Of a DNA stretch of 64,000 bases, positions 21,334 through 58,863 are shown piece by piece. Position 1 is the stretch's first letter. Each line of letters starts with the position of its first letter. Location of the stretch: sequence record OP595145.1. One strand, given 5' to 3'. A model generated the notes under the pieces. That model had not been told where the DNA came from and ran no database searches. It saw only the letters and a program-made list of their open reading frames with translations. The stretch is from Escherichia phage vB_EcoM_DE16. A program made the position numbers and the translations under genes.

Positions 21334-21987
21334 CTATACCAGACTTTGTAGGTATTTGTCAAGGGCTTCTTGATCGCCTTGACAAACATAGCAACGGAAG
21401 TCTTGAGCCGAAGGTTGTTTATTTTCATCCCAGTCCCAATAAACATTACCCTTATAACGTGAACCAGGAAACTCAAAAGAGGCTGTATGTGTAATGTATC
21501 CTGGGCCACCAGTGAAATCACAGAATGAGAATTGGGGGTATGCCGCCTTTACTGCCTCAATAAACCAAGCTTTACGATCTAAAGCTTCATTGATGCTATA
21601 CGCATGTCTCTCCATTTCTTCCCACGTTTTCCAGACACTTCTCTCATCAGGAGAAAAGACAAGCCATTCTGGAAGGTATAGAGTGTCATAGTAATCATCA
21701 TATTCGATCTCGGAGGCGCACGAAGCTGACTCCTCCAGTTTTGAGTAATCAAAAGCAGAATATACCCACCAACCATCTTCCAGTAACGCTTTGATAGGGA
21801 CGAAGCCTTTATCAGCATATTGATCGAATTGTTTGACACGGTGGCTTGTGCAGTCTTCAAACTCACATTCTAAACGATATGCACCTTTTCGACGAGCCTC
21901 AAGACCGTGTGTACTGAAAATAACAACACTTCCTTCACCATCATTACGATCTACTTGATAAGCAACCACTGGTTTTGAATTTGACAT
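21334..21987 (-). CDS. hypothetical protein (217 aa)
   Basis: ORF in co-directional block. Confidence 0.55.
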   Translation of the reverse strand: MSNSKPVVAYQVDRNDGEGSVVIFSTHGLEARRKGAYRLECEFEDCTSHRVKQFDQYADKGFVPIKALLEDGWWVYSAFDYSKLEESASCASEIEYDDYYDTLYLPEWLVFSPDERSVWKTWEEMERHAYSINEALDRKAWFIEAVKAAYPQFSFCDFTGGPGYITHTASFEFPGSRYKGNVYWDWDENKQPSAQDFRCYVCQGDQEALDKYLQSLV

Positions 21988-22670
21988 TATTTCTCCTTAT
22001 CTAGAAGATTGTTAGACAAAAACACTGCACGAGCAAAACCACGTGCGGTTAGTGATCTAAGTTGTTTTGTTTTTGCACTAGCTCCACCTAAGCTTTTCCA
22101 ACCCCAGAAGCAGCCTATATGATCTACTGGTTTCTTCACTGGTTGAACAAAACCATTGCCGTGCCAAATACAAGTTTTCTTTGTATACCCATCACGGGTA
22201 GGCATTTTAGGATGAAAGCTTCCTTCCTCTTCAAACAAATACCCACCATACTCATAAGGATCAAAGTAAAAATCGGGTTTACGCCATAAGGTTGAAAGTT
22301 TACCTACTGGGTTCTCAATCATCCAAGGAACATTATATTTGTTACCCAAAGCTTCCACTACACGAATATTAGCTAAAGCTTCATCCAATTCCTCTGTGCT
22401 GCGTTCGTGTTTGCTACCACTACCTGCTAACATAGTGCAAGGTGGAAATCCAAAAATAATATCGGGTTTAGGTATCCCATGATCTTCAGGGTTGAATGTA
22501 GAATCTATCCAGGCATTCACATAGGTTATGTTTGGGTGCTCCATCCTAACCTCGTATTTACCGTGATCCCCTTCATCAGCGTTTACACAAAAACACTTGT
22601 GACCTGCTTCGGCATAACGTAACACCATGATCCCAGATCCGTCAAACATAGACAAAACTGTTTTACTCAT
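21987..22670 (-). CDS. putative DNA cytosine-C5 methyltransferase-like protein
   Basis: motifs MFDGSG (motif I-like), GFPPCT (motif IV PC), ENPVG (motif VI ENV-like); start set at internal Met. Confidence 0.5.
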   Translation of the reverse strand: MSKTVLSMFDGSGIMVLRYAEAGHKCFCVNADEGDHGKYEVRMEHPNITYVNAWIDSTFNPEDHGIPKPDIIFGFPPCTMLAGSGSKHERSTEELDEALANIRVVEALGNKYNVPWMIENPVGKLSTLWRKPDFYFDPYEYGGYLFEEEGSFHPKMPTRDGYTKKTCIWHGNGFVQPVKKPVDHIGCFWGWKSLGGASAKTKQLRSLTARGFARAVFLSNNLLDKEK

Positions 22671-26419: not shown

Positions 26420-26728
26420 TCAACAAGTAATTTCAAAAGGTGTATAGGGTTCCGTATTTCTCATGATCCAAGGACTGCTAGGATTGCTCGGATCATAAGG
26501 ACCAAAAGGTTTTATGGTCGGTTGTGTTTCTTTCTTCTGAATCTCTTCAAAAATACGACGAAGTTCAGAATATTCTTGATCCACCATAAGATTCGGTGCA
26601 TCTGATTCTACAGCTTGCAGGTTATCTTCCTTAAGAACAATCTCACGAACAAGATTAACATCTTCTGTTTCTAAGATAACTTCTTTACGGATATTACCTA
26701 CACTTTGAATAATTGTAATCTTATACAT
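26420..26728 (-). CDS. hypothetical protein (102 aa)
   Basis: ORF in co-directional block. Confidence 0.5.
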   Translation of the reverse strand: MYKITIIQSVGNIRKEVILETEDVNLVREIVLKEDNLQAVESDAPNLMVDQEYSELRRIFEEIQKKETQPTIKPFGPYDPSNPSSPWIMRNTEPYTPFEITC

Positions 26729-27471
26729 TAATCCTCCTCAAGAGTTGAATAAAATTGAAGACCACCGTCCATATCGAAATAAGCAAATGTTAAGTTATTA
26801 TTGAACACAGATCCAGTATCCATATAAACACGATTCGCATTGATAATAGGTGTTTTTACATAAGAGTGTCCATGAAACACATAATCCACACCCATCACAA
26901 CAGGAAGTTTCATTCCCTCTTTAGCACAGTCTACCATATCTCTGTCCCACATAAGTGCTTCAGCAAAACGGTTTTCCTGTGTTTTTGTCATCTTCGAAAT
27001 GTATTCTGGAATATCTGTTACAGGGAGATATTCCAAAGAAGATGGATACCCACCATGAATAAACGCAAGTTTCATGCCTCTGTAGTTAACAATGAGAACA
27101 ACAGGTAAATCTTCTGTCATCATTGCTAAGGCTGTAGCTCCTTCTTCACCACATTCTTCAAAGACCGTATATCCTCCATTTTGATACCAACACTCGTAGT
27201 AGCTACGATCTCCTTCCAGCATACCTTTAATCATCATGTCTTCATGATTGCCACGAATAGCGTAGCGATTGTGTTTACGAGTAAATTCTAAAACACAACG
27301 AAAGTTTTGCTTTCCACGGTCAGTAAGATCTCCTAGAGATACAACCACATCTGTATCTCGGATACCTAACTTTGCCTTTCCTTTTTCATACAAATTATAA
27401 CAACCGTGTAGATCTCCAATTATAAAAAGATCTTGATCGCTTTTAACAGTAATTTCTCTGTGTATGATCAC
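26728..27471 (-). CDS. Ser/Thr protein phosphatase (calcineurin-like metallophosphoesterase)
   Basis: GDLHG, GDLTDRG and GNHE metal-binding motifs in order. Confidence 0.8.
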   Translation of the reverse strand: MIIHREITVKSDQDLFIIGDLHGCYNLYEKGKAKLGIRDTDVVVSLGDLTDRGKQNFRCVLEFTRKHNRYAIRGNHEDMMIKGMLEGDRSYYECWYQNGGYTVFEECGEEGATALAMMTEDLPVVLIVNYRGMKLAFIHGGYPSSLEYLPVTDIPEYISKMTKTQENRFAEALMWDRDMVDCAKEGMKLPVVMGVDYVFHGHSYVKTPIINANRVYMDTGSVFNNNLTFAYFDMDGGLQFYSTLEED

Positions 27472-27797
27472 TTATCCTCCTCAAAATCTAAGAAAATAAA
27501 AATATTCACCTTTCCTTCAATCTCTTGTTCTAAAACAAGATCGGCAAATTCTGCATAAGCTTTCTCTTCAACTTTTTCAATATGTTCTGCGGCATCTTTA
27601 AAAGGCGTATCCCCATCCACCTTTACTAATAAGAAAAGAGATCGCATTTCGACGTTTTTACTGTTACGAGGAAGGAAATCTACAGCTTCAACAATTCTCC
27701 AACCCAAATAGCCAGGGGTTTTATGAATCTCCCCTAAATACTTTTCTAAGATTTTACGACCCTCGTCGATAAGGGCTTGTTCTGTAGTAATTTCCAT
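27468..27797 (-). CDS. hypothetical protein (109 aa)
   Basis: ORF, ATGA overlap with downstream gene. Confidence 0.5.
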   Translation of the reverse strand: MEITTEQALIDEGRKILEKYLGEIHKTPGYLGWRIVEAVDFLPRNSKNVEMRSLFLLVKVDGDTPFKDAAEHIEKVEEKAYAEFADLVLEQEIEGKVNIFIFLDFEEDK

Positions 27798-27807
27798 TCC
27801 TTCCTCC

Positions 27808-28380
27808 TCAAATTATTAACGAAACCGCATGACTAAATCTTGGTTCAGATATAACCTCTGCTACAGTCACATATGTATCGTGCAGCCAAAAAGATTCTAC
27901 TCTACAAACACAAATACCGTTGATAATGAAATCTACACAGGATTTATTATTTTCGCACACCTGTTGACTATAAACAACCCCTAAAGAGTCATAAAGTGAT
28001 CTCACTGTTGCTACCATTTCATCTGTTTCGTCTTCGTGTGAAACAAAGAAGACGAATACAGACAAGTTATTAGCGAAAGTATTGCTATTCTCTACTTCAA
28101 CCGACTTACAAGGTAAAAAGGAGTAATATTTACCGCTAGGTATCAATTTCGCCTCAACCTGGTTAAGTATGCTTTGAGATGGTTTTGTTACATAAAAAAG
28201 ATTTTCTGTTGGGTTTTCAACATTACTCCTTACTATGCAACGAGTGGGGTTCGAAGGATCAAAAACATGATCGAAATCGACACACACAGGTAAGTTAACA
28301 ACTTTAAACTTTTTGCTAAGAATGCTTACTGCTGTAAAAATCAAACCAGCATTTATTTTGCCAGTGAAAGTTGAACGCAT
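27808..28380 (-). CDS. hypothetical protein (190 aa)
   Basis: ATG 28380 preceded by GAGGAG. Confidence 0.55.
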   Translation of the reverse strand: MRSTFTGKINAGLIFTAVSILSKKFKVVNLPVCVDFDHVFDPSNPTRCIVRSNVENPTENLFYVTKPSQSILNQVEAKLIPSGKYYSFLPCKSVEVENSNTFANNLSVFVFFVSHEDETDEMVATVRSLYDSLGVVYSQQVCENNKSCVDFIINGICVCRVESFWLHDTYVTVAEVISEPRFSHAVSLII

Positions 28381-28394
28381 AACTACTCCTCGGA

Positions 28395-28589
28395 TCATTC
28401 TACCAAAGAGAATTCCGCCTCTTCCAGGTAGATTACAGACCTTGTTGCATGATATTTAACGCTCCAGAAATTACCTTCGCGCCGTAAAAGTATCTCATTC
28501 ACATCAAGATTGCTTAGAAAAACCATATAACTTAAAGCTTGTTGACGCGTTGAGAATTGTTTCTCTAAAAGTTCTTCTCCGCTCTGCAT
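28395..28589 (-). CDS. hypothetical protein (64 aa)
   Basis: ORF in co-directional block. Confidence 0.45.
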   Translation of the reverse strand: MQSGEELLEKQFSTRQQALSYMVFLSNLDVNEILLRREGNFWSVKYHATRSVIYLEEAEFSLVE

Positions 28590-28634
28590 AATCCCTCCTT
28601 AAAATACTCCCTCCGAAAAGGGAGTATAAGTATA

Positions 28635-28838
28635 TCACGTAGTTGTTATGTTGTCTTCTTGGATATTAGAATCCACTTCTGCAAACATATCTTCTGCACT
28701 GTAATTATTTCCAGTCCAGCGTGATAAAAGGATAGCACCAATCTCTTTTGCATGAGATTCGGACTCCGCATAAACGTTAGTCCCAGTGTCACCTTTTTTC
28801 TTTTCATGTGCATAAATGCAGTAATAATTGTAAGCCAT
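28635..28838 (-). CDS. hypothetical protein (67 aa)
   Basis: ORF in co-directional block. Confidence 0.45.
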   Translation of the reverse strand: MAYNYYCIYAHEKKKGDTGTNVYAESESHAKEIGAILLSRWTGNNYSAEDMFAEVDSNIQEDNITTT

Positions 28839-29074
28839 TAATCTTCCCAGTCATTGCCCTCGGTAGAGTGAACTAAAGCTCGCACGATACCACCGTAATC
28901 TACTGCCTGATTTGCAGCATGTTCGGCATAAACTTCAATGGCTTTTTTGAAGAAAAGAGCAGTAGCTGCTTCAATATTATCCATTTCGCCATCTACGTCA
29001 GTAGAAAGTGAAAGGTTGAGGCTTTCATCTACTTCATCAAAATCAATAGCCACTGTCATAATTAGTTTACCCAT
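28838..29074 (-). CDS. hypothetical protein (78 aa)
   Basis: ORF in co-directional block. Confidence 0.45.
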   Translation of the reverse strand: MGKLIMTVAIDFDEVDESLNLSLSTDVDGEMDNIEAATALFFKKAIEVYAEHAANQAVDYGGIVRALVHSTEGNDWED

Positions 29075-29086
29075 AGTTCACACTCC

Positions 29087-29596
29087 TTAAACAAAATAAA
29101 ATGGTTGAGAGAGGCCCAAACGATTCTTTGGGTCGTATACATACCAAGCGTATGCTGTCTTATCTGTTCCACCTGCAACAAACGAAGGCCGTTCTGAAAG
29201 GACTATAAGGTTTGTTGGTGGATTCTTTTGATGGAACTCTCGTCGTTTCTTTGACTCCAAGAAGCCCAACCGAAGAAGATAAATACAAACATCCGCCTCT
29301 TTTAAGCTCTTTTCCAAGAACTCCATTGCTAACTTGAATGGAGGATTTGTGATTATAATGTCGGGACGATTTTCCCATTCATGACTAAAATAATCTTTAC
29401 CTTCTTCAAGTTCACAATATTCTGAACCTTCAGGAAAATGGCGATAAATCGCTTCAGCTTCACCTCTACAAGGTTCTGCAAAAACCCAACCTTCTTCCTT
29501 TAGATTTTTGAAATCTATAACACTAAACAAACTATTGATTGCTTTTTGCGGTGTCGGATAATAATCGCTCGTTGGGCGATCATAATCTAATGCCAT
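29087..29596 (-). CDS. putative N6-adenine methyltransferase (NPPF motif)
   Basis: IIITNPPF matches motif IV (D/N-P-P-F/Y) of amino-methyltransferases; 169 aa. Confidence 0.5.
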   Translation of the reverse strand: MALDYDRPTSDYYPTPQKAINSLFSVIDFKNLKEEGWVFAEPCRGEAEAIYRHFPEGSEYCELEEGKDYFSHEWENRPDIIITNPPFKLAMEFLEKSLKEADVCIYLLRLGFLESKKRREFHQKNPPTNLIVLSERPSFVAGGTDKTAYAWYVYDPKNRLGLSQPFYFV

Positions 29597-30014
29597 CTAA
29601 AATCTCCTCTTTTGTAATATTATCCAACTCTTTAAAGGATGAAATCTCATTTAATAGTCCTATTTGATCAGCCTCTAGAGGATAAGTGTTTTTATCTGTT
29701 TTTCTAGACAGAATATCTTCAACAAACTTATCAATAGCCAAAGAAGAATCATAAAATTTTAAAAGTTGGTAATCCATAGGAGATATTTTGTCATCTCTTA
29801 GAAATATTTCTAACATGTTTTCAGGAGTATCGTGGTTTAGTTTATGTTCACCAAAAATATTAACTTCGTAAACATCTTTGCCAAACCAACGTTTTTTCTT
29901 TTCAACAGTATAGGTTTTTGCCACCAGACCATCTAAACAGTTTCTTGCCCTCTTACATGTTTGACGGTAAGAGTGGATAGCGCCTTCAACAAACTTAGCA
30001 GGAACTTGTAACAT
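29580..30014 (-). CDS. hypothetical protein (144 aa)
   Basis: ORF in co-directional block. Confidence 0.5.
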   Translation of the reverse strand: MLQVPAKFVEGAIHSYRQTCKRARNCLDGLVAKTYTVEKKKRWFGKDVYEVNIFGEHKLNHDTPENMLEIFLRDDKISPMDYQLLKFYDSSLAIDKFVEDILSRKTDKNTYPLEADQIGLLNEISSFKELDNITKEEILDGIRL

Positions 30015-30038
30015 TATTAATCTCCTATGTTTAAGAAA

Positions 30039-30054
30039 TGCCCCCGAAGGGGCA
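30039..30054 (-). terminator. GC-rich tetraloop hairpin (UGCCCC-UUCG-GGGGCA on minus strand)
   Basis: perfect 6-bp stem between two minus-strand genes. Confidence 0.5.
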
Positions 30055-30059
30055 GTTTG

Positions 30060-30752
30060 TTAAATAGCGGTTCCTTCGAAATCCGCCACATTTACGAGAT
30101 TAATATTTTCAGATTTAGAAGTCAAGTTGTTTTCTGCAACAGATTTTTCTTCAGTATCCGCCTCGTTACCTGCCACGTTACGAGGTTCTTCTTCACCGTA
30201 GGGATTACCGAATTTCAAAAGATTGATTAATTCTTCTTTGGAGAAGTTTTCTAAATCATCGTCTGTTAATTCAATAATCTCGTCTTGTTCTTCAATAAAT
30301 GTTTCACCACCAGAAAAAGCATCTCGCTTTTTAGCTACTTCCATAGCCTGTTCTGGTGTTGCCCCTGCATCAAGAGCAGCTAAAGCAAAGTCTGACCCGC
30401 TTCCTACCGCATAATATTCTTCATCAATCGGATATGCACGTGTTGGGTTGTTACCTTCGTGCAGGAAAATACGTCCGTCTGGATGAACAACAAGTGCAAT
30501 AAACTCTTCATCTTCTTTATCTGGATCAGAGTGAATCATCAAACCAGGGACAGCATCACGTGCTGCTTCGCACTGTAGATTTTGTTCAAACCATTGAAAG
30601 AAAGAAAGCACGGAGGTCAGACGACCAGCACCACCTACAAGGTAATCTCCAATTTTTCGGACCTTTTTGAAATTAATAGAATCTACACGTCCACCAAAAG
30701 TTACCTTACCGTCACTCAAAATCTTATTTTTGGTTGCAATAATTGTCGTCAC
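30060..30752 (-). CDS. HslV-like Ntn-hydrolase peptidase (proteasome beta-type) with acidic C-terminal extension
   Basis: N-terminus MTTIIATKN (Thr right after Met), KKVRK, VGGAGRLTSVLSFFQWFEQNL and AVGSGSDFALAA align with HslV landmarks. Confidence 0.6.
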   Translation of the reverse strand: MTTIIATKNKILSDGKVTFGGRVDSINFKKVRKIGDYLVGGAGRLTSVLSFFQWFEQNLQCEAARDAVPGLMIHSDPDKEDEEFIALVVHPDGRIFLHEGNNPTRAYPIDEEYYAVGSGSDFALAALDAGATPEQAMEVAKKRDAFSGGETFIEEQDEIIELTDDDLENFSKEELINLLKFGNPYGEEEPRNVAGNEADTEEKSVAENNLTSKSENINLVNVADFEGTAI

Positions 30753-31255
30753 TATTCTTCCTCCTCTGTTAATGTTTTAAGAACCGCTTTCCCGCCATTC
30801 ACATATTTGCAGATGTATTCTATCGCACGTAGTGTCTCTTTGTCAACAAAAATTTGATCGGACGTTGCGAGCGGGTTATTAAGAAGATCACTGCAATCAC
30901 GAACAAGCAGTGCTTTCTTATTAAACAAATTACTTAAGAACAGTAACTTCGCCTCTTCTTCTGTTATGTGCAGAAGGCTAGGATCGGAGCCAGCTATTCC
31001 TATTATACAATCAAACAAGCTTTCTTTACTATCAGAAAGTTCTTGAAAATGGTTTAAAAGCCAATCTTCTCCTAGACACCAACATTTAAACATTTCCAGT
31101 TTATCTCGGAGGGTCATATTCTCTAAAGTAAGAGCAATCTCTTTTTCAATATGGTTTACACAAATTTGACGAAATTCGTTAGGTTTTACGAGTCCCGTTT
31201 GATAGCACTCATCTATACCGCTTCTTCCGATAGCTATTGTTGCTACACCCATCAA
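30752..31255 (-). CDS. hypothetical protein (167 aa)
   Basis: ORF in co-directional block. Confidence 0.5.
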   Translation of the reverse strand: MMGVATIAIGRSGIDECYQTGLVKPNEFRQICVNHIEKEIALTLENMTLRDKLEMFKCWCLGEDWLLNHFQELSDSKESLFDCIIGIAGSDPSLLHITEEEAKLLFLSNLFNKKALLVRDCSDLLNNPLATSDQIFVDKETLRAIEYICKYVNGGKAVLKTLTEEEE

Positions 31256-31287
31256 TCCTCCTTATAAATGGCTTCCCTGCCATGTTA

Positions 31288-32046
31288 TTAAATAAACACT
31301 TCAGTAATCAGTTTAGACAAACGTCCACGTTTATTATCGTCCGTTGTCAGTTCAACGTATCCAATAAAATCTACAATTGGCTCACGAACACCTTCTTCAT
31401 TTTCTGGATACAAAAGTTCCAAAATTTGATGCAGACCATTGCTACGTTTTTTAATTGCATATGTCTGGCGAACATCGCCTAATACAATAACATGCGTATT
31501 AATACCTGCACGTTCAATAAGAAGTTTAAGTGTTTCTGTTGACATAAGTTGTGCTTCGTCAATAATGACGATTGTATTATCCAGGGTAGCCCCCAACAAA
31601 TAGTTAGGAATATTCAATTCGATCTTACCTGATCCAATATCGTTTTCCAATTTGTTGGCTGTCATGAATTGCTGGAAAATACGTTTTGTAGATTCATAGT
31701 GTGCTGCTAGTTTATCTGTTTTATCCCCAGACAAGAAACCAATCTGGTCATCTCCGACTTCAGTAGGGTTCTTAATAAAAAGTAGTTTACGGAAGTCTCC
31801 TGAACGAAGCATCTGCAAAGCTTTCCATAAAGCAACAGAGGTTTTACCAGTCCCTGCCGGAGCATTTACAACAGTCAGATCATTCCAAATCATGCTTTGA
31901 ACAATCTTATTTTGGTCCCCTTCAGGCATAAATTCATCTAAACGGTAATCGTCATTACCTACCGCTTTTGCTGCATAACGGCTTTCAATCTTTGCTGAAT
32001 TAGCCAGTTTCTGCCGTTGTGTTTTAGCTGCGGTTTTATTTCCCAT
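31288..32046 (-). CDS. phoH: PhoH-like ATPase
   Basis: Walker A NAPAGTGKTS and PhoH-like downstream conservation; ATG 32046 after AAAGGAG. Confidence 0.8.
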   Translation of the reverse strand: MGNKTAAKTQRQKLANSAKIESRYAAKAVGNDDYRLDEFMPEGDQNKIVQSMIWNDLTVVNAPAGTGKTSVALWKALQMLRSGDFRKLLFIKNPTEVGDDQIGFLSGDKTDKLAAHYESTKRIFQQFMTANKLENDIGSGKIELNIPNYLLGATLDNTIVIIDEAQLMSTETLKLLIERAGINTHVIVLGDVRQTYAIKKRSNGLHQILELLYPENEEGVREPIVDFIGYVELTTDDNKRGRLSKLITEVFI

Positions 32047-32063
32047 AGTAGCACTCCTTTTAG

Positions 32064-32081
32064 AAGGGGCCGAAGCCCCTT
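32064..32081 (-). terminator. intercistronic hairpin GGGGCUUCGGCCCC
   Basis: between lysozyme stop and phoH SD; identical core to 19964 and 38233 copies. Confidence 0.55.
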
Positions 32082-32083
32082 TA

Positions 32084-32584
32084 TTAGTTGTAAGCATCTA
32101 AAGTTCCAGAAGTCAGAACTTTAATTACTCGTTCAGCACGGTTTGGCGTCTGGCTATACCATCGGCTTTTACGCATGTTTTTACCTGCTTGAGTATAATA
32201 TGCATTGCTGATTAAAGTCAAGCTATTTTGAAACCCTTCAGCACCTTTTAACCCCAACTGGAAAACCATGTTGATTATTCCCAGTTTACGAGTATCACTA
32301 ACCTTATCATAGATTGGTGATAAGATAGTACTGTTTTTTATGTCTCTCTTCACTTTTGCAACATCGTCAGCAAAGATTTGACGGGCTTCTTTTTCTGTGA
32401 TAACTCCATTAGTCTTACGACCAAGAAGATTATCTAAGATTTGAATAGCCTTTGCTTTATCTTTTATTTTAGTCAGAAGGTGTCCTATGCCGACTGTCCA
32501 ATAACCAAGATGGTCTTGATAAACAGTAAGCTTCAGTCCTTCATCGACTCGTAGCATATCAAACTCATCTACTACTTTAGCCAT
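32084..32584 (-). CDS. T4-type lysozyme (glycoside hydrolase family 24 endolysin)
   Basis: MLRVDEGLKLTVYQDHLGYWTVGIGHL and RWYSQTPNRAERV mirror T4 lysozyme landmark segments. Confidence 0.85.
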   Translation of the reverse strand: MAKVVDEFDMLRVDEGLKLTVYQDHLGYWTVGIGHLLTKIKDKAKAIQILDNLLGRKTNGVITEKEARQIFADDVAKVKRDIKNSTILSPIYDKVSDTRKLGIINMVFQLGLKGAEGFQNSLTLISNAYYTQAGKNMRKSRWYSQTPNRAERVIKVLTSGTLDAYN

Positions 32585-32746
32585 TTACTTCCTATTCGTC
32601 GTCTCCTACTCCGTGATCCAACTCGTTAAACAACAGATGTTCTGGAGAAGTTTCACGTTTTGGTTTCGTTTTCTTTATGTTGGACTTCAGCTCATTTGCC
32701 AAAGCACGAGAAAAGATCTTACGTTTCTGTTTACTTTTCATAATTG

Positions 32747-33007
32747 TTACTCCGCAATTTGAGCCATGAGATCACGCAGTTCGGTAAAACCGCCTACGTA
32801 TGTTACCTCCCCGTTCACTTCAGACAGAATTTGTGGAAATGTGCGTGGAGGAACTCCGGTAAGATCAACAACTGTTTTAGTCATTGATTCTAAATCATAG
32901 TCTTGGTCAAGACTTAAATATTCAAACTGTTTATTGCGCATAGTCAATAGTTGTTTTGACATTTCACAAAATTGACAGTTAGGTTTACCAAAAATTACAA
33001 ATTCCAT
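32747..33007 (-). CDS. glutaredoxin-like protein (CxxC redoxin)
   Basis: 86 aa, FGKPNCQFC active-site motif. Confidence 0.7.
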   Translation of the reverse strand: MEFVIFGKPNCQFCEMSKQLLTMRNKQFEYLSLDQDYDLESMTKTVVDLTGVPPRTFPQILSEVNGEVTYVGGFTELRDLMAQIAE

Positions 33008-33849
33008 TACCTCTCCTTATTAAGTAATACTGCTAAAGACTGTTCAATACCTTTATTTAAATCTGATTTTGTAAGATAGTGACTGGTTACTAGTTGTGAC
33101 TTCACCGGACGTGCTGCTGGAGCATTATAGGTTGAAGCTGATACCGCCGATATCTTAACAGGTTCTGGCATCTGTGTCAAGATCTTTTCCGCAAACTCCG
33201 CCCAAGAAATAAGATGGCTTCCTGCAAAATGGTAAGTCTTAACAGACCTTGACCAACCTGTTTTTAATACTTCAAAAATAGCTTCTGCTAAATCTGGAGC
33301 ATATGTTGGACAAGATAACTGATCAGCAACAATAATAAAATCACGTTGTCCATCATTATAGCGAGACAACATGGTTTTTAGAAAGTTATTTCCAAATTCG
33401 CTATATACCGAGGCTGTTCGAATAATATATGCATTTGGGTTAACTCCTCGCACCATTTTTTCACCAAGTTCTTTCGTATACCCATAATTGTTTATTGGGT
33501 TAGGTGTAGTATCTTCAAAAATAGGATGAGAATAATTAAAAATATAGTCTGTGGAAATATGCACAAAATCAATTTTAAGTTTGCTGCACACTGCCGCAAT
33601 ATTTGCAGGGCCATAAGCATTAACAGCCAAAGCAGTAGCAAAATCTTGTTCGGCTTTATCTACAGCCGTATAAGCGGCGCAATTAATAACACCATCTACA
33701 TAATCTTCAACAATAGCGTTTCGCACAGCTTCAAAATTTGTAATATCTACACGTTCTTTAGGATAAATTAAAGATACATTTGCAGGAGCAACTTTACGTA
33801 AAGCTTGTCCCAGTTGTCCATTACCACCCAATACCAGATATGTTAGCAT
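33007..33849 (-). CDS. rmlD: dTDP-4-dehydrorhamnose reductase
   Basis: N-terminal LVLGGNGQLG Rossmann motif, length 280 aa, position in rmlBACD cluster. Confidence 0.75.
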   Translation of the reverse strand: MLTYLVLGGNGQLGQALRKVAPANVSLIYPKERVDITNFEAVRNAIVEDYVDGVINCAAYTAVDKAEQDFATALAVNAYGPANIAAVCSKLKIDFVHISTDYIFNYSHPIFEDTTPNPINNYGYTKELGEKMVRGVNPNAYIIRTASVYSEFGNNFLKTMLSRYNDGQRDFIIVADQLSCPTYAPDLAEAIFEVLKTGWSRSVKTYHFAGSHLISWAEFAEKILTQMPEPVKISAVSASTYNAPAARPVKSQLVTSHYLTKSDLNKGIEQSLAVLLNKER

Positions 33850-34409
33850 ACACCCTCGCTACGTAACTGTTGAAAAGATTTAGCCATTGCATCTTTTGTT
33901 GATAGGATAGGTTTAAAACCTTCATCAAAAATCATATCGAAGCCCCAATCGATCCCTATATCAGGATCATCCCAACGTAAACTTTGTTCACTAGAAGGGT
34001 CGTATGGAGTTGTGCATTTGTATTCAAAGATAGCATCCATACTCAAAACTATAAAACCATGTGCCAAACCAGGTGGAAGCCAAAACTGCGTATGGTGTCG
34101 TGCACGAAGAACAACACCGTCCCAAGCACCGTAAGTAGGACTATCTTTACGTAAGTCTACAGCGAAATCCAATACTTCACCACTTACACAACGAACAAGC
34201 TTACCTTGCGGATTATTTGTTTGAAAGTGCATTCCTCGCAAAACACCGAAGTTTGATTTAGACATGTTATCTTGAACGAAAGTTTGTCTACCAATAATAT
34301 CTTCGTATTTTTGTTCATTATATGTTTCTAAAAAGAAACCACGGTCATCTTTATAAACGTCTGGTTTGATAATTACCGCACCTTCAATTTTTGTTTTTTC
34401 TACTTTCAT
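33843..34409 (-). CDS. rmlC: dTDP-4-dehydrorhamnose 3,5-epimerase
   Basis: cupin-type RmlC region [12 protein letters not shown]; start at ATG 34409 overlapping rmlA stop (ATGA). Confidence 0.75.
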
Positions 34410-35284
34410 TTTCCCTCCGCTAATTTGAGTAGGTATTGCCCGTACTCTGTTTTCTTCAGTGAGTTTCCATGATAGACCAAAGTCTCTAAAGAAATCCACC
34501 CTTTTTTGAAAGCAATTTCTTCCAGGCACGCAATCTTCAATCCTTGACAGTTCTCAATAGTCTGCACGAATTGACCAGCTTCCATCAGACTGGCGTGTGT
34601 TCCTGTATCAAGCCAAGTAAATCCTCGTCCGAGAACTTCTACTTGTAACTTCCTGTCTTCGAGGTAGCTGCGATTGATATCGGTGATCTCCAGTTCTCCA
34701 CGCGCGGAAGGGGTTACTTCTAATGCACGTTGAATAACAGAGTTATCATAGAAATACAAACCTGTGACAGCATAATCTGATTTAGGATTTTCAGGTTTCT
34801 CTTCAATAGAAATAACTTGACGATTACTCCCAAATTCAACCACACCGAATCGTTCAGGATCTTTCACCAAACACCCGAAGATACAAGCTCCGCCCCAAAC
34901 ATCTACCATCTCACTAGCGTTAATCAGTAGTTTACCAAAGCTTTGTCCGAAGAATAGGTTGTCACCTAAAATAAGAGCAACAGAGTCTTCTCCGATAAAA
35001 TCTTTACCGATGATGAAAGCGTCCGCAAGACCTCGTGGCTCGGATTGGATTGCGTAAGTGAGTTTTATCCCAAACATAGACCCATCTCCAAGAAGATGCT
35101 CAAAGTCTTCCTGATCGCCTGGTGTGGTGATGATTAAGATATCCTTAATGTCAGCCAACATCAATACCGATAAAGGGTAGTAGATCATGGGTTTGTCATA
35201 CACAGGGAGCAATTGCTTGCTCACACTGCGTGTTACCGGATGAAGGCGGGTTCCACTTCCTCCCGCCAAAATAATACCTTTCAT
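34406..35284 (-). CDS. rmlA: glucose-1-phosphate thymidylyltransferase
   Basis: [11 protein letters not shown] ... [17 protein letters not shown] signature. Confidence 0.85.
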
Positions 35285-35292
35285 AACCCTCC

Positions 35293-36285
35293 TTAAATCT
35301 TCTCACTCCACCATTGAGGGTTGTTTAAGTACCATTCAATCGTTGAGTAGAGATCTTGTTCAAATGTAGAGTTTGCACTCCAACCCAGTTCAGACTCTAT
35401 TTTAGAAGGATTGATTTCATAACGCAAGTCATGTCCTTTACGATCTTCAACAAAAGTTATCAAGTTGGAAGAAGGGTAGGTTCCTGCTTCTGGATGTACA
35501 GCATCCATGTAGTCACAAACCATATAGATGATCTCCATATTGGTTTTGGGATTACGTGTTCCAACATTATACGTTTGACCTGGTTCTCCACCTGTTGCCA
35601 CTTGAAGAATAGCTCGCGCATGATCCTCAACAAAAAGCCAGTCTCGCACCTGATCGCCTTTACCATACACCGGAATCTCTTTATTCGTCAAGATACTTGT
35701 GATGATTTTTGGGATCAGCTTTTCTGGATGTTGATAAGGTCCAAAGTTATTGGAGCAGTTGGTTATCACAACAGGTAAACCGTAGGTACGGTACCAAGCT
35801 TTCACAAGATGGTCAGATGCTGCCTTAGACGCACTGTACGGGCTTGAAGGAGCATAAGCTGTCTCTTCGGTAAAGGGAACGCCAGAGTCTGCCATATCGC
35901 CGTACACTTCGTCTGTGGAGACGTGTACGAACATCTTCAGTTTATTTTTTGGGAGGAGCCTTGCAGCTTCCAATAAATTGTATGTGCCAATAATATTGGA
36001 GTCGATGAAAACTCGTGGATTCTTGATAGAATTATCCACATGACTCTCTGCCGCTAAGTGAATGATGAAATCGGGATTGCACTCTACTACTAAACTTTTG
36101 ACCTGGGTTTCGTTTGCCAAATCTGTTATGCTTAGTTTAACGTGAGTGATATCGCCTACATTCTCAATATCTGCTGCATAGCCCATCTTATCAACGACAA
36201 AAACTTCGTTATTGGGATCTTGACAAAGAGAGCGCACCACGGCACTCCCAATAAAACCAAGACCACCTGTTACCAGATAGCGCAT
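35293..36285 (-). CDS. rmlB: dTDP-glucose 4,6-dehydratase
   Basis: [10 protein letters not shown] Rossmann motif and YSASK catalytic Y-x3-K. Confidence 0.85.
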
Positions 36286-57065: not shown

Positions 57066-57140
57066 GGCCCTGTAGCTCAATGGGAGAGCTGTCGGCTCAT
57101 AACCGATAGGTAGCTGGATCGAAACCAGCCAGGGCCACCA
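57066..57140 (+). tRNA. tRNA-Met/Ile2 (anticodon CAT)
   Basis: full cloverleaf: acceptor GGCCCTG/CAGGGCC, loop CTCATAA, encoded CCA; resembles lysidine-type Ile tRNA. Confidence 0.8.
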
Positions 57141-57142
57141 AC

Positions 57143-57217
57143 GTCTTTATGGTGTAATGGATAGCACAGGAGTCTTCTAAACTCTTAGTCAAGGTTCGAT
57201 TCCTTGTAAAGACACCA
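57143..57217 (+). tRNA. tRNA-Arg (anticodon TCT)
   Basis: acceptor GTCTTTA/TAAAGAC, anticodon loop CTTCTAA, T-loop TTCGATT, CCA. Confidence 0.8.
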
Positions 57218-57414
57218 GAATATTTTAACATGAATTAGCTCAAGTGATTTGAACCCCACTACTGATCATGGTGGCAGAGAATGAGGCAAGTATGTCAGAC
57301 ATTATAAACAAAGGCCACGGTTATATTAGAAGACATAGACGCTCGAAGAGCACCGTTCGTGGAGAACGGGGGTTGGTGGAGTCACCATTCATGGTAAAAT
57401 GTTTTAAAAAACTA

Positions 57415-57444
57415 TTGACAACAAACATTATTTTATGTTAGATT
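57415..57444 (+). promoter_or_regulatory. promoter AACTATTGACA-N18-TAGATT
   Basis: same conserved -35 context as 56826 and 58570. Confidence 0.45.
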
Positions 57445-57452
57445 ATAAGTAT

Positions 57453-57543
57453 GGAAGGGCAAATCGACGTGGCGACGAAAACGGTCTTGAAAACCGCCGA
57501 GCTTGAAAGAGCCTTGGGAGTTCGACTCTCCCTCCTTCCGCCA
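57453..57543 (+). tRNA. tRNA-Ser (anticodon TGA), type II
   Basis: acceptor GGAAGGG/TCCTTCC, loop CTTGAAA, long variable arm, T-loop TTCGACT, CCA. Confidence 0.7.
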
Positions 57544-57548
57544 GATTA

Positions 57549-57634
57549 GGTAGATTGGTGAAATGGTAGCCACAACAGTTTGCTAAACTGTAGTCGGAAA
57601 CGGCGTGTAGGTTCGAGTCCTACATCTACCGCCA
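57549..57634 (+). tRNA. tRNA-Ser (anticodon GCT), type II
   Basis: acceptor GGTAGAT/ATCTACC, loop TTGCTAA, long variable arm, CCA. Confidence 0.75.
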
Positions 57635-57764
57635 AGTTCTTTTTAATATAGCTTACTTTAATAGAGTAAACTTTCGGCAGATGGCCTCCACCATCTTACC
57701 GATACTTCATAGTTAGTGGTGCGAACACTGGCTATTTTAAAAAGAATTTAAATACTAGCATTTA

Positions 57765-57852
57765 GGTGAGTTAATTCCGTAGGGGTAGCGGGGCAGACTG
57801 TAAATCTGTTATCATTGCGATTCGGGTGGTTCGACTCCATCACTCACCACCA
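57765..57852 (+). tRNA. tRNA-Tyr (anticodon GTA), type II
   Basis: acceptor GGTGAGT/ACTCACC, anticodon arm GCAGA-CTGTAAA-TCTGT, CCA. Confidence 0.75.
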
Positions 57853-57858
57853 AATTAA

Positions 57859-57944
57859 GATGAGTTGGCTGAATGGTTTAAGCGGCGGACTGTTAATCCG
57901 TGTTCGAAAGAACGATATAGGTTCAAATCCTATACTCATCGCCA
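57859..57944 (+). tRNA. tRNA-Asn-like (anticodon GTT) with atypical 15-nt variable arm
   Basis: anticodon arm GCGGA-CTGTTAA-TCCGT matches Asn tRNAs, but GTTC-GAAA-GAAC hairpin inserted in variable region. Confidence 0.5.
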
Positions 57945-57951
57945 GAATTAT

Positions 57952-58028
57952 GGACTTGTAGAGTTAAGGTAAACCCCCAGTCGCCAAGAGGCTTCTGGAA
58001 TTGCAGGTATCGAATCCTGCCGAGTCCC
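57952..58028 (+). other. degenerate tRNA-like element
   Basis: 7-bp acceptor pairing and T-arm GCAGG ... CCTGC with 8-nt loop, but no canonical anticodon arm. Confidence 0.3.
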
Positions 58029-58034
58029 AGCTTT

Positions 58035-58109
58035 GCTCCTATAGTATAATGGCTATTACAACGGTTTTGTAATCCGTGGATCTCTGTTCGATTCAGAGTG
58101 GGAGCACCA
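58035..58109 (+). tRNA. tRNA-Thr (anticodon TGT)
   Basis: acceptor GCTCCTA/TGGGAGC, loop TTTGTAA, T-arm CTCTG-TTCGATT-CAGAG, CCA. Confidence 0.75.
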
Positions 58110-58569
58110 ACATAACAGGTAAGAACATTTAGGCTACTGAGAAATCATCCGAGGCAATCAGACCTATCTTCTGTTAAGTGTTCTTATCGTTGTGAAGAAA
58201 GCAAACTTATTGAATGTAAGCGGACGAAAGACATTCACTAACCTGTAGTAAGGTCGAGCCAAAGCGCGGTAATGAGTTCCGAGGTTAGTATTCACAACAC
58301 AACATTAAGAGCACTGTGATTGATCGTCGTATCCTGTGCACAAGGTCTGCTCGAAAGACAGTGTTCTTAGTATTGTGTTGATCACAAAAAGAGTTACCTG
58401 AAACTTGACCGGAGTAGGGTTGGATGGGGCAAAAGAAGAAGCGGCTCTCCCATCGACAGCAACGAAGAATAATATTTGACTTTGGTTTTGTATTATTTTA
58501 AGTTAGCTTACCGAACGTAGGGCTAGTCACCCAATGGGATACTCGTCACTGTCCCACTCAATAAAACTA

Positions 58570-58599
58570 TTGACAACCAATAGTAAAATGTAGTATAGT
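58570..58599 (+). promoter_or_regulatory. promoter AACTATTGACA-N18-TATAGT
   Basis: perfect -35 and 5/6 -10, just upstream of tRNA-Gly. Confidence 0.55.
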
Positions 58600-58610
58600 A
58601 AAGATGTAGG

Positions 58611-58684
58611 GCGTTCTTGGTGTAGCGGTAGCATTCCGTCCTTCCAAGTCGGCGGCACGAGTTCGATCCTCGTAGAACGCTCCA
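58611..58684 (+). tRNA. tRNA-Gly (anticodon TCC)
   Basis: acceptor GCGTTCT/AGAACGC, loop CTTCCAA, T-arm ACGAG-TTCGATC-CTCGT, CCA. Confidence 0.7.
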
Positions 58685-58858: not shown

Positions 58859-58863
58859 TATAA

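What the first reader, a model, noticed from the sequence alone, without database searches (positions are those of the whole stretch)
30060..30752. Phage-encoded HslV-like peptidase without an adjacent HslU
The 230-aa product starts MTTIIATKN (Thr directly after the initiator Met, as in Ntn-hydrolase proteasome subunits) and shares HslV segments (KKVRK, VGGAGRLTSVLSFFQWFEQNL, AVGSGSDFALAA). It has an extra acidic C-terminal tail of ~60 residues. No AAA+ HslU-like gene is nearby, so it may use the host ATPase or act in virion or host protein processing.
Basis: partly seen in the sequence, partly recalled or inferred. Interest (0 to 1): 0.5.

Follow-up and report, generated by a model that had tools for sequence, protein, structure and literature searches.

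The report
Phage proteasome-like peptidase (PPH family)
This is a real gene of a phAPEC8-like E. coli phage that encodes a small proteasome-like threonine peptidase of the already described phage family PPH; it is intact, has no unfoldase partner, and nobody has yet tested what it does.

Summary
Window 30060-30752 on the minus strand (GTG start, strong RBS) encodes a 230-aa protein with an N-terminal Thr. It matches PHROG 1040 'peptidase HslV family' (E=1.6e-63) and Pfam Proteasome, and it models as an Ntn fold. The whole catalytic set is invariant across the family.

It is not HslV proper. It scores 31-32 bits against HslV equivalog cut-offs of 137-158. Helix H2, which forms part of the HslU-tail pocket, is missing. 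No HslU or ClpX relative occurs in the window, in the rest of the phAPEC8 genome, or within 6 kb of the gene in 84 related loci.

It fits 'PPH/RPC', the proteasome homologues of phages defined computationally by Fuchs, Alva and Lupas (2021). They also reported that no AAA+ partner co-occurs. RefSeq already labels this gene in near-identical phages, so the finding is already known. The function is untested.

What I add:
- The 'acidic tail' starts with a conserved two-helix motif (T.E.....[ST]KEELL...FG) that defines a tail-bearing subfamily.
- That subfamily sits in a fixed NrdAB-lysozyme-PhoH-PPH module.
- The downstream 144-aa protein ends in a similar TKEE[IL]L peptide. This is weak (E=0.18).

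Most likely it is an unfoldase-independent, self-compartmentalising peptidase made before virion assembly. Interest is modest.

The parts
30060..30752 (-). Gene for the 230-aa proteasome-like Thr-Ntn peptidase (PPH/RPC clade, PHROG 1040). GTG start at 30752-30750; TAA stop at 30062-30060.
   Evidence: ORF. PHROG 1040 E=1.6e-63. Pfam Proteasome above its gathering score. A copy 99.6% identical is annotated 'peptidase HslV family' in RefSeq phAPEC8/ESCO13.
30288..30752 (-). Ntn-hydrolase core, residues 1-155. Catalytic residues: Thr2 (Thr1 after Met removal; codon 30749-30747), Asp14, Lys30, Gly43, Ser118, Asp144 and Ser147-Gly148.
   Evidence: M1 T2 T3 I4 D14 K30 G117 S118 G119 are invariant in 43 sequences down to 27% identity. 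T2, K30 and G43 are invariant in 60 representatives. In the AF2 model the ten-residue block means of pLDDT over residues 1-150 are mostly 91-99, with a dip to 81 at residues 71-80. Foldseek hits BPH, HslV and 20S beta at about E=1e-10.
30501..30551 (-). Residues 68-84 (VPGLMIHSDPDKEDEEF): a Pro-containing acidic loop in the place of helix H2 and the pore motif of HslV.
   Evidence: DSSP on the model shows no helix between H45-67 and strand 84-89. The loop aligns with E. coli HslV helix H2 and the R86-E92 pore motif. It has 6 D/E and 1 K/R. D81 is at least 90% conserved. Lack of H2 is the stated hallmark of PPH/RPC (PMC8665760).
30201..30275 (-). Conserved C-terminal two-helix motif, residues about 160-184 (IELTDDDLENFSKEELINLLKFGNP). 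Family consensus: acidic linker, then T.E.....[ST]KEELL...FG.
   Evidence: Helices 164-169 and 172-181 are predicted; ten-residue block means of pLDDT are 88 (161-170) and 91 (171-180). The motif is conserved in about 55 of 60 representatives that are at most 50% identical to one another. No Pfam domain matches it.
30063..30200 (-). Variable acidic tail predicted to be disordered, residues 185-230.
   Evidence: Ten-residue block means of pLDDT are 47-57 from residue 191 and 71 for 181-190. 11 D/E against 3 K/R. Sequence and length are not conserved among relatives. Some relatives carry extra domains here.
30760..30766 (-). Shine-Dalgarno GAGGAGG, 7 nt upstream of the GTG start. The upstream gene's TAG stop (30754-30752) overlaps the GTG by one base.
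   Evidence: Read directly from the sequence.
30039..30054 (.). GC-rich hairpin (TGCCCC-TTCG-GGGGCA) followed by a T-run, starting 5 nt after the stop codon. It looks like an intrinsic terminator on both strands.
   Evidence: Terminator scan and the sequence itself. This is a consensus match only; function is not shown.
30817..30846 (-). Sigma-70-like promoter match (TTGACA-18-TAGAAT, 11 of 12) inside the 3' end of the upstream gene, about 65 nt before the start codon.
   Evidence: Joint-best promoter-like match in 26500-34500 (11 of 12, shared with a plus-strand site at 31539-31566). The total count (29) is not above shuffles (23 +/- 4.5). Unverified.
30752..31255 (-). Context: translationally coupled upstream gene (167 aa from TTG; 166 aa from the annotated ATG at 31252), PHROG 14834, function unknown.
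29580..30014 (-). Context: downstream gene (144 aa), PHROG 15078, function unknown. Its C-terminus (ELDNITKEEILDGIRL) resembles the peptidase's tail motif.
   Evidence: PHROG. It is the best non-self hit of the tail-motif HMM in about 72,000 residues of genome ORFs, but at E=0.18. TKEE[IL]L is invariant in 7 of 8 orthologues at 53-58% identity.
31288..32097 (-). Context: PhoH-like P-loop ATPase, two genes upstream.
   Evidence: Pfam PhoH E=1.2e-36. PhoH lies within 6 kb of every tail-bearing family member examined. This is most simply explained by lineage synteny.

Best explanation
The gene encodes a catalytically competent, propeptide-free threonine N-terminal-nucleophile peptidase of the phage proteasome-homologue clade (PPH/RPC of Fuchs et al. 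2021, which is PHROG 1040).

Shown:
- The gene is real and well signalled.
- It has the Ntn fold with a fully conserved Thr1/Asp17/Lys33/Gly47/Ser129/Asp166-Ser169-type set.
- Thr directly follows the initiator Met.
- Helix H2 is replaced by an acidic loop.
- There is no HslU or ClpX relative in the genome or next to any of 84 related genes.
- The gene lies in a replication/nucleotide-metabolism operon, not the virion module.

Inferred:
- Host methionine aminopeptidase exposes Thr1, as it does for E. coli HslV.
- The protein assembles into a ring-shaped, self-compartmentalising oligomer.
- It works without a dedicated unfoldase, cleaving peptides and unfolded or disordered polypeptides in the infected cell before virion assembly. 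This is the mode proposed for BPH and for uncapped 20S particles.
- The conserved C-terminal two-helix motif, followed by a variable acidic tail or extra domain, projects from the outer surface. It serves as a docking or recruiting arm, or possibly a gating arm, that gives lineage-specific targeting.
For: Identity:
- PHROG 1040 E=1.6e-63 and Pfam PF00227 above its gathering score.
- AF2 model with pLDDT 85.7 and an Ntn core.
- Foldseek hits to BPH, HslV and 20S beta at about E=1e-10.
- Invariant T2/D14/K30/G43/S118, with D144, G148 and G149 of the RDxxSGG stretch at least 90% conserved. This indicates selection for catalysis.
- Nearly every one of about 80 homologues starts MTT[IV].

PPH-type features:
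- No H2 in the model.
- 32-39% identity to phage proteins of 139-146 aa that have only the core.
- The published definition of PPH/RPC (PMC8665760).

No unfoldase:
- HslU tblastn against 50,697 phage records hits only 4 'Escherichia' records, whereas 104-106 carry this gene.
- No HslU hit in the window or in the rest of phAPEC8 that I fetched. No HslU or AAA hit within 6 kb in 84 loci.
- The same conclusion is published.

Non-structural role:
- Operon context with RNR, glutaredoxin, lysozyme, PhoH, methyltransferase, phosphatase and DprA.
- A separate candidate head-maturation protease lies between the portal and scaffold genes.
- The phi92 orthologue gp058 is not mentioned in a whole-virion cryo-EM study.

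Tail as a functional module:
- The motif is conserved across about 55 representatives at 50% clustering, while the sequence after it varies freely.
- Fuchs et al. note that the C-termini face away from the assumed rings.
Against: - No biochemical or genetic data exist for any PPH member in the literature I could search.
- BPH and Anbu, the closest stand-alone relatives, have no demonstrated substrates. 'Unfoldase-independent protease' is therefore an analogy, not an observation.
- Oligomeric state could not be predicted here because only a monomer model was possible. Fuchs et al. warn that some homologues may not form stacked rings.
- The absence of H2 rests on an AF2 model built from 43 sequences (ten-residue block means of pLDDT 81-91 across that loop).
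- The GenBank record of phage VEcB lacks about 1.1 kb spanning the 3' part of phoH, the intervening gene and the first ~100 codons of this gene. If that is real, the protein is dispensable in the laboratory.
Confidence: 0.55

Rival explanations
1. Host-HslU hijack. The phage peptidase docks onto the host's HslU (ClpY) hexamer and forms a hybrid ATP-dependent protease with altered specificity.
For: - HslV is the closest solved relative by sequence.
F57 aligns with F52 and F54 with L49.
- As far as I know, the proteobacterial hosts of the phages carrying this family have HslVU (my own knowledge, not tested here).
Against: - Only 27% identity to E. coli HslV, and far below the HslV equivalog cut-offs.
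- H2, which supplies A79/K80 of the HslU C-tail pocket (PMC6429459), is absent.
- The residue aligned with HslV Lys28 is Ser and is variable in the family. The role of K28 is recalled from memory, not verified.
- The pore region is an acidic loop, as in the unfoldase-less BPH, rather than the short HslV pore motif.
Confidence: 0.12
2. A phage-encoded, non-canonical ATPase partner. The peptidase works with the PhoH-like P-loop ATPase two genes upstream, or with the phage's PF00004-type AAA protein (phAPEC8 gp014, outside the window).
For: - PhoH lies within 6 kb in 9 of 9 loci whose peptidase carries the tail motif, against 3 of 66 others. It is also present in three further metagenomic relatives, including one rearranged order (L026).
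- gp014 matches PF00004 at 29.9 bits, above the gathering score of 21.2. It is present in 106 Escherichia phage records, about the same set that carries the peptidase.
Against: - The PhoH association coincides with one phage super-lineage that shares a whole syntenic module (NrdAB, Grx, lysozyme, PhoH, then PPH and resolvase). It is not independent evidence.
- PhoH is not known to act as a protein unfoldase (my own knowledge).
- gp014 homologues are abundant in Enterococcus, Bacillus and Staphylococcus phages, genera absent from the listed genera of records carrying the peptidase. Vibrio, Caulobacter and Rhizobium are not among the ten genera listed for gp014 homologues; 31 further genera were not shown.
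- gp014 has no HbYX-like or HslU-like C-terminus; it ends ...TTLGSVF.
- It lies about 43 kb away.
Confidence: 0.1
3. A non-degradative Ntn enzyme. It would be a site-specific processing enzyme, or a ligase/transpeptidase like archaeal connectase, acting on one phage or host protein. The tail motif would act as the recognition handle.
For: - Connectase shows that the proteasome fold can be a monomeric ligase (PMC8665760).
- Fuchs et al. stress that some new homologues may not form rings.
- The neighbouring 144-aa protein carries a similar C-terminal TKEE[IL]L peptide.
Against: - The sequence and fold are closest to the ring-forming HslV, BPH and beta subunits. No connectase chain appears among the 50 fold matches listed.
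- The motif similarity is not statistically significant on its own (E=0.18).
- The 144-aa gene is confined to Stephanstirmvirinae, whereas the tail motif is much wider.
Confidence: 0.1
4. A catalysis-independent decoy. It would poison host HslV rings or sequester host factors to protect phage proteins from degradation.
For: Phages do inhibit host proteases, for example T4 PinA against Lon (my own knowledge). The acidic tail could mimic a substrate or nucleic acid.
Against: The complete catalytic set is invariant across thousands of relatives. A pure decoy would not need that.
Confidence: 0.04
5. A virion or prohead maturation protease.
Against: - The gene is about 30 kb from the head module, in an oppositely oriented operon of replication and metabolism genes.
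- A small gene between the portal and scaffold genes matches head-maturation-protease PHROGs (phrog_3017, E=3e-12).
- The phi92 virion study does not mention gp58.
Confidence: 0.03

Closest known systems
[quoted passage not shown]
   Same: - Compact core of about 140-155 residues without helix H2.
- No propeptide, and a Thr1/Asp17/Lys33/Gly47 set.
- Found in tailed phages of Proteobacteria.
- No co-occurring AAA+ protein.
- For RPC, a C-terminal extension that matches no known structure.
   Different: - The paper lists RPC only from proteobacterial genomes and describes PPH as about 140 residues. This protein is phage-borne and carries an 80-residue extension.
- I could not compare it with the authors' reference sequences (WP_042125023.1 and WP_140207863) because they are not in the material I could reach.
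- As far as the passages I read show, the paper does not describe the tail motif or the fixed gene module.
HslV (ClpQ), peptidase subunit of bacterial HslVU
   Same: - Best sequence match among solved structures (1m4y, E=4.9e-9 with the single sequence and 5.4e-16 with the profile).
- Thr directly after Met.
- The KKVR and GxAG motifs and helix H1.
   Different: - 27% identity to the host's own HslV.
- 31-32 bits against equivalog cut-offs of 137 and 157.75.
- No H2, so the HslU-tail pocket is incomplete.
- An acidic pore loop.
- A C-terminal RDxxSGG stretch that aligns with 20S beta5 rather than with E. coli HslV, whose alignment stops at profile position 129.
- No hslU partner gene.
- An 80-residue C-terminal extension.
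BPH (beta-proteobacterial proteasome homologue; PDB 5ovs/5ovt)
   Same: - Top Foldseek hit (E=2.6e-10).
- A stand-alone gene with no known unfoldase.
- An acidic pore region.
   Different: - BPH keeps both helix pairs and forms double heptameric rings.
- By sequence, BPH scores E=1 against this protein.
- BPH is cellular, not viral.
HslU-like ATPases and proteasome-fold proteins of Erwinia, Salmonella and Serratia jumbo phages
   Same: Phage-borne proteasome-fold proteins, annotated as an ATP-dependent protease subunit.
   Different: Jumbo phages of those host genera carry HslU-like ATPase genes, and some also have distant proteasome-fold proteins (TM about 0.4-0.6, 13-21% identity). I did not show that the two occur in the same genome, and this phage has no HslU-like ATPase gene.

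Membership tests
Proteasome/HslV Ntn-hydrolase superfamily (Pfam PF00227) | Score above the curated Pfam gathering threshold | tested here: met
   25.6 bits against 22.4. 48 of 60 subfamily representatives also match.
Proteasome/HslV Ntn-hydrolase superfamily (Pfam PF00227) | Alpha-beta-beta-alpha Ntn fold | tested here: met
   AF2 model with pLDDT 85.7. Foldseek probability 1.00 to BPH, HslV and 20S beta, with TM up to 0.69.
Proteasome/HslV Ntn-hydrolase superfamily (Pfam PF00227) | N-terminal Thr nucleophile with Asp17, Lys33, Gly47, Ser129 and Asp166/Ser169 equivalents | tested here: met
   T2, D14, K30, G43, S118 and D144/S147-G148 are present. T2, D14, K30, G117, S118 and G119 are invariant in 43 sequences. 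G43 is invariant in 60.
HslV (bacterial HslVU peptidase subunit) | Score above the NCBIfam equivalog cut-offs (NF003964, TIGR03692) | tested here: not met
   32.2 against 137 bits and 31.4 against 157.75 bits.
HslV (bacterial HslVU peptidase subunit) | A cognate HslU AAA+ gene, normally in the same operon | tested here: not met
   No HslU hit in the window or in the fetched remainder of phAPEC8, and none within 6 kb in 84 related loci. Only 4 of more than 100 Escherichia phage records have any HslU-like hit.
HslV (bacterial HslVU peptidase subunit) | HslU C-tail pocket formed by H1 (F54, F57), H2 (A79, K80) and Q114 (PMC6429459) | tested here: not met
   The H1 positions are hydrophobic (L49, F52). 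H2 is absent from the model and replaced by a Pro-containing acidic loop. This is a model-based result.
HslV (bacterial HslVU peptidase subunit) | Dodecamer of two stacked hexameric rings | not testable with these tools
   Only single-chain prediction was available.
PPH / RPC (Fuchs et al. 2021) | Compact core lacking helix H2 | tested here: met
   DSSP shows H45-67, then coil 68-83, then a strand. Core-only relatives are 137-155 aa long.
PPH / RPC (Fuchs et al. 2021) | No propeptide (Thr directly after Met) | tested here: met
   MTT[IV] is at the start of essentially all homologues.
PPH / RPC (Fuchs et al. 2021) | Encoded by tailed phages or prophages of Proteobacteria | tested here: met
   233 phage records (Escherichia, Vibrio, Caulobacter, Aeromonas, Klebsiella, Rhizobium and others). 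At least 332 IMG/VR contigs.
PPH / RPC (Fuchs et al. 2021) | Sequence clustering with the authors' reference members (WP_042125023.1 for PPH, WP_140207863 for RPC) | not tested
Indirect support: the same PHROG as, and 32-35% identity to, core-only proteins of Caulobacter and Rhizobium phages.
PPH / RPC (Fuchs et al. 2021) | RPC only: a C-terminal extension or domain with no known structural match | tested here: met
   An 80-residue extension. No Pfam hit in 60 tails except two marginal single hits.

The most novel reading that the evidence does not exclude
The tail-bearing subfamily is not a bare peptidase. It is the core of a small phage-specific proteolytic system with a built-in adaptor.

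The conserved '[ST]KEELL..FG' two-helix peptide on the protease's own C-terminus would dock to a defined site on the ring or on a partner. The variable domain behind it (acidic tail, zinc-ribbon-like or HeH-like modules in relatives) would select targets such as host defence or stress proteins.

The downstream 144-aa protein ends in the same TKEE[IL]L peptide, so it would compete for that site as a regulator, adaptor or substrate. A bolder version has the always-linked PhoH-like ATPase as a non-AAA+ energy-dependent partner.
Probability: 0.1. Interest if true: 0.7.

Novelty: already known. Interest (0 to 1): 0.3.

Why it matters
Proteasome-type proteases are central to protein turnover in cells. 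PPH is the only proteasome-like lineage that appears to be truly viral, and what it does during infection has never been tested.

This phage infects E. coli and is easy to handle. It belongs to a group with well-studied relatives such as phi92 and phAPEC8. That makes it a convenient system for three questions:
- Can a proteasome-fold enzyme work without an unfoldase?
- What does it degrade?
- Does it counter host defences or remodel the host proteome?

The finding itself adds no new family. Its value is as a pointer to a tractable model, and to a conserved C-terminal motif that can be mutated.

Tried and rejected

2. Upstream family extending to the Vibrio phage VnaP -1 gene. A pairwise hint (E=0.008) was not confirmed by one or two rounds of profile search (E=4.7).

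3. A universal conserved neighbour. Clustering the +/-5 genes in 75 non-identical loci gave no family present in more than 11 loci.

4. PhoH as a functional partner. The perfect association with the tail motif collapses into shared synteny within one phage super-lineage. I keep it only as a low-probability rival.

5. The phage AAA protein gp014 as a partner. Its phylogenetic distribution does not match, and it has no docking-type C-terminus.

6. The tail as an HeH/SAP/Rho_N-like domain, a resemblance I recalled from the sequence pattern. Pfam finds nothing in the window protein even at E up to 10. Only 1 of 60 relatives gives a marginal Ish1 hit (E=0.0088).

7. The tail end as a mimic of the HslU C-terminus (EDLSRFIL). 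The C-termini are not conserved.

8. Literature searches for experimental work on phage HslV-like or PPH proteins found none.

9. The afdb50 fold library was unavailable. The supplement of PMC8665760 has no sequences.
Full report
**1. The observation**

The coordinates are right, but the gene is on the minus strand. ORF 30060..30752 has a GTG start and encodes 230 aa beginning MTTIIATKN. The plus strand of the same stretch is full of stops.

The start is well supported. GAGGAGG lies 7 nt upstream, and the GTG overlaps the TAG stop of the preceding gene by one base. A GC-rich hairpin followed by a T-run sits directly after the stop. An 11-of-12 sigma-70-like match lies about 65 nt upstream, inside the preceding gene. 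Promoter-like matches in the region are not more frequent than in shuffled sequence.

The window is a Phapecoctavirus (phAPEC8/ESCO13-like, 99.3-99.5% identity over 6 kb).

**2. Family similarity is real**

- PHROG 1040 'peptidase HslV family' matches residues 1-229 at E=1.6e-63.
- Pfam Proteasome scores 25.6 bits against a gathering score of 22.4.
- The best solved relatives are HslVs: 1m4y at E=4.9e-9, and 5.4e-16 with a family profile.

In an alignment of 43 relatives down to 27% identity, M1, T2, T3, I4, D14, K30, G117, S118 and G119 are invariant. In 60 representatives of the tail-bearing subfamily, T2, K30 and G43 are invariant. Together with the D144-x-x-S147-G148-G149 stretch, this is the complete Thr1/Asp17/Lys33/Gly47/Ser129/Asp166-Ser169 set of proteasome-type enzymes.

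Almost all of about 80 homologues from viral contigs begin MTT[IV]. There is therefore no propeptide. By established knowledge of methionine aminopeptidase specificity, removal of the initiator Met should expose Thr1.

An AlphaFold2 model (pLDDT 85.7) shows the Ntn core at residues 1-155. Foldseek matches BPH (5ovt), HslV (6kui, 1m4y, 1g3i) and archaeal and eukaryotic beta subunits, all near E=1e-10 with TM up to 0.69.

**3. It is not HslV proper**

- The two NCBIfam HslV equivalog models give 32.2 and 31.4 bits against cut-offs of 137 and 157.75.
- Identity to the host's HslV is 27%.
- With the family profile, E. coli and H. influenzae HslV align only up to profile position 129. The C-terminal GSG...RDxxSGG half aligns best with 20S beta5 subunits.
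- The model has one long helix (45-67) followed by a 16-residue coil, VPGLMIHSDPDKEDEEF. HslV has helix H2 and its pore motif at that position.
- According to PMC6429459, the pocket that receives the HslU C-terminal tail is lined by F54 and F57 (H1), A79 and K80 (H2) and Q114. The H2 part is therefore missing here.

**4. No unfoldase**

- tblastn with E. coli HslU finds nothing in the window, in the ESCO13 segment, or in the remaining 80 kb of phAPEC8. It also finds nothing within 6 kb of the homologous gene in 84 loci.
- Across 50,697 phage records, HslU-like genes occur mainly in Erwinia and Salmonella jumbo phages, Lak phages and some Gram-positive records. Only 4 'Escherichia' records have a hit, whereas 104-106 carry this gene.
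- phAPEC8 does encode a PF00004-type AAA protein (gp014, 379 aa, outside the window). Its homologues are common in Enterococcus, Bacillus and Staphylococcus phages, and Vibrio, Caulobacter and Rhizobium are not among the genera listed for its homologues. Its C-terminus has no HbYX-like or HslU-like docking motif.
- A PhoH-like P-loop ATPase lies two genes upstream.

**5. What is already known**

[quoted passage not shown] It is about 140 residues long, lacks H2 and has no propeptide. [quoted passage not shown] They state that no co-occurring AAA+ interactors and no informative genomic context were found. They suggest unfoldase-independent function, by analogy with BPH and the uncapped 20S particle.

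The present protein meets every PPH/RPC feature I could test (see the membership table). I could not compare it directly with their reference sequences. RefSeq already labels the 99.6%-identical genes of phAPEC8, ESCO13 and many others 'peptidase HslV family'. The phi92 orthologue is gp058. I found no experimental study of any member.

**6. Size and shape of the family**

- 233 phage records have a homologue.
- More than 332 IMG/VR contigs do.
- A profile search of 1.84 billion cluster representatives gives 5,778 hits at E<=1e-10. This count may include some cellular HslVs, given how the PDB E-values would scale to a database of that size.
- About 60 hits at E<=1e-30 match through the tail motif and are 183-350 aa long. 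The next ranks are mostly proteins of 137-160 aa with only the core.

**7. The C-terminal extension**

Residues 151-230 carry 22 D/E and 5 K/R. The first part is not a floppy tail. Helices 164-169 and 172-181 are predicted with block-mean pLDDT of 88-91.

The segment 'acidic linker, then T.E.....[ST]KEELL...FG' is conserved in about 55 of 60 representatives that are at most 50% identical to one another. After it the sequence is free to vary. In the window protein it is a 46-residue acidic region predicted to be disordered. In relatives it can be a Cys-rich insert, a 'KWRLHNA' module, or an HeH-like 'L..YA..LG[VI]K' segment. None of these is recognised by Pfam.

Fuchs et al. note that the C-termini point away from the assumed rings and could be interaction sites.

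**8. Genomic context**

The gene lies in a long minus-strand operon with NrdA/B, glutaredoxin, dTDP-rhamnose genes, T4-type lysozyme, PhoH, a DNA methyltransferase, a Ser/Thr phosphatase and DprA.

The same order (NrdAB, Grx, lysozyme, PhoH, one to five small genes, the peptidase, then phosphatase or methyltransferase and resolvase) recurs in:
- Justusliebigvirus;
- three metagenomic relatives whose peptidase is 43-49% identical;
- in looser form, the Aeromonas Plateaulakevirus and Vibrio VnaP phages.

PhoH is within 6 kb in 9 of 9 motif-bearing loci and in 3 of 66 others. Because these phages share the whole module, this is lineage synteny rather than independent evidence of a functional link.

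No neighbour family is present in more than 11 of 75 non-identical loci.

The translationally coupled upstream gene (167 aa, PHROG 14834) accompanies the peptidase throughout the enterobacterial lineage but not beyond it. Its confident all-alpha model matches no solved fold.

The head module has its own candidate maturation protease (phAPEC8 gp117; phrog_3017, E=3e-12). A whole-virion cryo-EM study of phi92 never mentions gp58. A virion role is therefore unlikely.

**9. A weak lead**

An HMM of the tail motif, run over about 72,000 residues of ORFs from the window and the rest of phAPEC8, ranks the immediately downstream 144-aa protein as the best non-self hit. The E-value is only 0.18. That protein ends ...ELDNITKEEILDGIRL, compared with ...LENFSKEELINLLKF in the peptidase.

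TKEE[IL]L, preceded by acidic residues, is invariant at the C-terminus of 7 of 8 orthologues that are 53-58% identical overall. This could be a shared docking peptide. It could also be chance in an E/K/L-rich proteome. The 144-aa gene is restricted to Stephanstirmvirinae.

**10. Interpretation**

Identity is secure. The mechanism is inferred. The most economical reading has three parts:
- It is an active, propeptide-free Thr peptidase that oligomerises like its relatives and acts without a dedicated unfoldase on peptides or unfolded and disordered proteins.
- It is made with the replication and metabolism genes.
- Its conserved tail helix-pair plus variable C-terminus acts as a docking or recruiting arm.

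Use of host HslU is disfavoured by the missing H2 and the low similarity, but it is not excluded. A phage ATPase partner, a connectase-like specific enzyme, a decoy and a head protease are progressively less likely.

The GenBank record of VEcB (MT932211) lacks about 1.1 kb here. That deletion fuses the N-terminus of PhoH to the C-terminal half of the peptidase (P0066). Another VEcB record (OZ035773) is intact. If the deletion is real, the gene is dispensable in culture.

**11. Verdict**

This is a correct observation of an already annotated and already described kind of gene. The 'no HslU' point is also already published. The function is open and experimentally tractable. The tail motif, the fixed module and the shared TKEE[IL]L peptide are small new leads. 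Interest 0.3; novelty: already known.

Noticed in passing
L002:3432-3983 and L002:4001-4885 (Aeromonas phage 2L372D gp210/gp211); also L015, L016, L017: Aeromonas Plateaulakevirus-type phages carry two adjacent PHROG-1040 genes. One is a 183-185-aa paralogue starting M-T-C-I-I-A (Thr1 kept). The other is a 275-294-aa tail-bearing one. The two show no significant pairwise similarity (best BLASTP E=0.75), so this is an old duplication. It may be a two-subunit phage proteasome-like particle.
   Followed up: partly
P0066; Escherichia phage VEcB MT932211.1/NC_052663.1 at 21447-22619, against OZ035773.1 at 114124-116424: The GenBank VEcB record lacks about 1.1 kb. It encodes a 267-aa fusion of the PhoH N-terminus to the C-terminal half of the peptidase, with no Thr1. 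A second VEcB record, 1,183 bp longer, is intact. This is either a laboratory deletion variant, which would imply the gene is dispensable, or an assembly error.
   Followed up: partly
window 29580-30014 (-): The 144-aa protein downstream of the peptidase ends in ...ITKEEILDGIRL, which resembles the peptidase's own tail motif FSKEELINLLKF. TKEE[IL]L is invariant in 7 of 8 orthologues. The genome-wide motif-HMM E-value is only 0.18.
   Followed up: partly
window 30752-31255 (-): The upstream, translationally coupled 167-aa protein (PHROG 14834) is very conserved. It has invariant C16 and C120 and the motifs GLVKPNEFRQ, LVRDCSD and VDKETLRA. It models confidently (pLDDT 91) as an all-alpha protein with no solved structural relative.
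   Followed up: yes
L008:21006-22145 (phAPEC8 gp014, NC_020079.1 139005-140144; outside the window): The phage encodes a 379-aa PF00004-type AAA ATPase. One relative annotates it as 'FtsH-like protease'. Homologues occur in GAP32-like jumbo phages and many Herelleviridae. Its function is unknown.
   Followed up: partly
L093:5988-6467 (phAPEC8 gp117, just beyond the window's right end): The 159-aa gene between the portal and the scaffold-like gene is named 'DNA methyltransferase' in RefSeq and PHROG 1530. It also matches head-maturation-protease PHROGs (phrog_3017, E=3e-12) and sits where a prohead protease is expected. The name is probably wrong.
   Followed up: partly
window 57066-59177 (+): A cluster of 10 tRNA genes (Met, Arg, Ser, Asn, Thr, Gly, Gln, Pro, Ile, Met) lies upstream of the terminase gene (60680-62755).
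   Followed up: no
window about 33007-36285 (-): A complete dTDP-rhamnose-type gene set (RmlD-, RmlC-, RmlA- and RmlB-like, by the ESCO13 annotation) sits within the phage's early/middle operon. This is unusual cargo whose target (DNA, virion or host surface) is not obvious.
   Followed up: no
window 27808-28398 (-): A 196-aa ORF carries the PHROG/RefSeq name 'histidyl tRNA synthetase' (phrog_4806) but has no Pfam match at all. The name looks unreliable.
   Followed up: no
phage records MG065650.1, MG065645.1, OP562383.1 and NC_047994.1: Records labelled Campylobacter, Acinetobacter or Klebsiella phage are 99% or more identical here to E. coli Phapecoctavirus or Justusliebigvirus genomes. The host labels or the cultures may be wrong.
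   Followed up: no
(Erwinia phages Ea35-70, Special G and RisingSun; Serratia phage Moabite; Klebsiella phage Miami): HslU-like ATPase genes occur in Erwinia jumbo phages such as Ea35-70 and in Klebsiella phage Miami. Distant proteasome-fold proteins occur in other Erwinia jumbo phages and in Serratia phage Moabite. Real phage HslVU-like pairs may therefore exist elsewhere, but I did not check that both genes occur in the same genome.
   Followed up: partly
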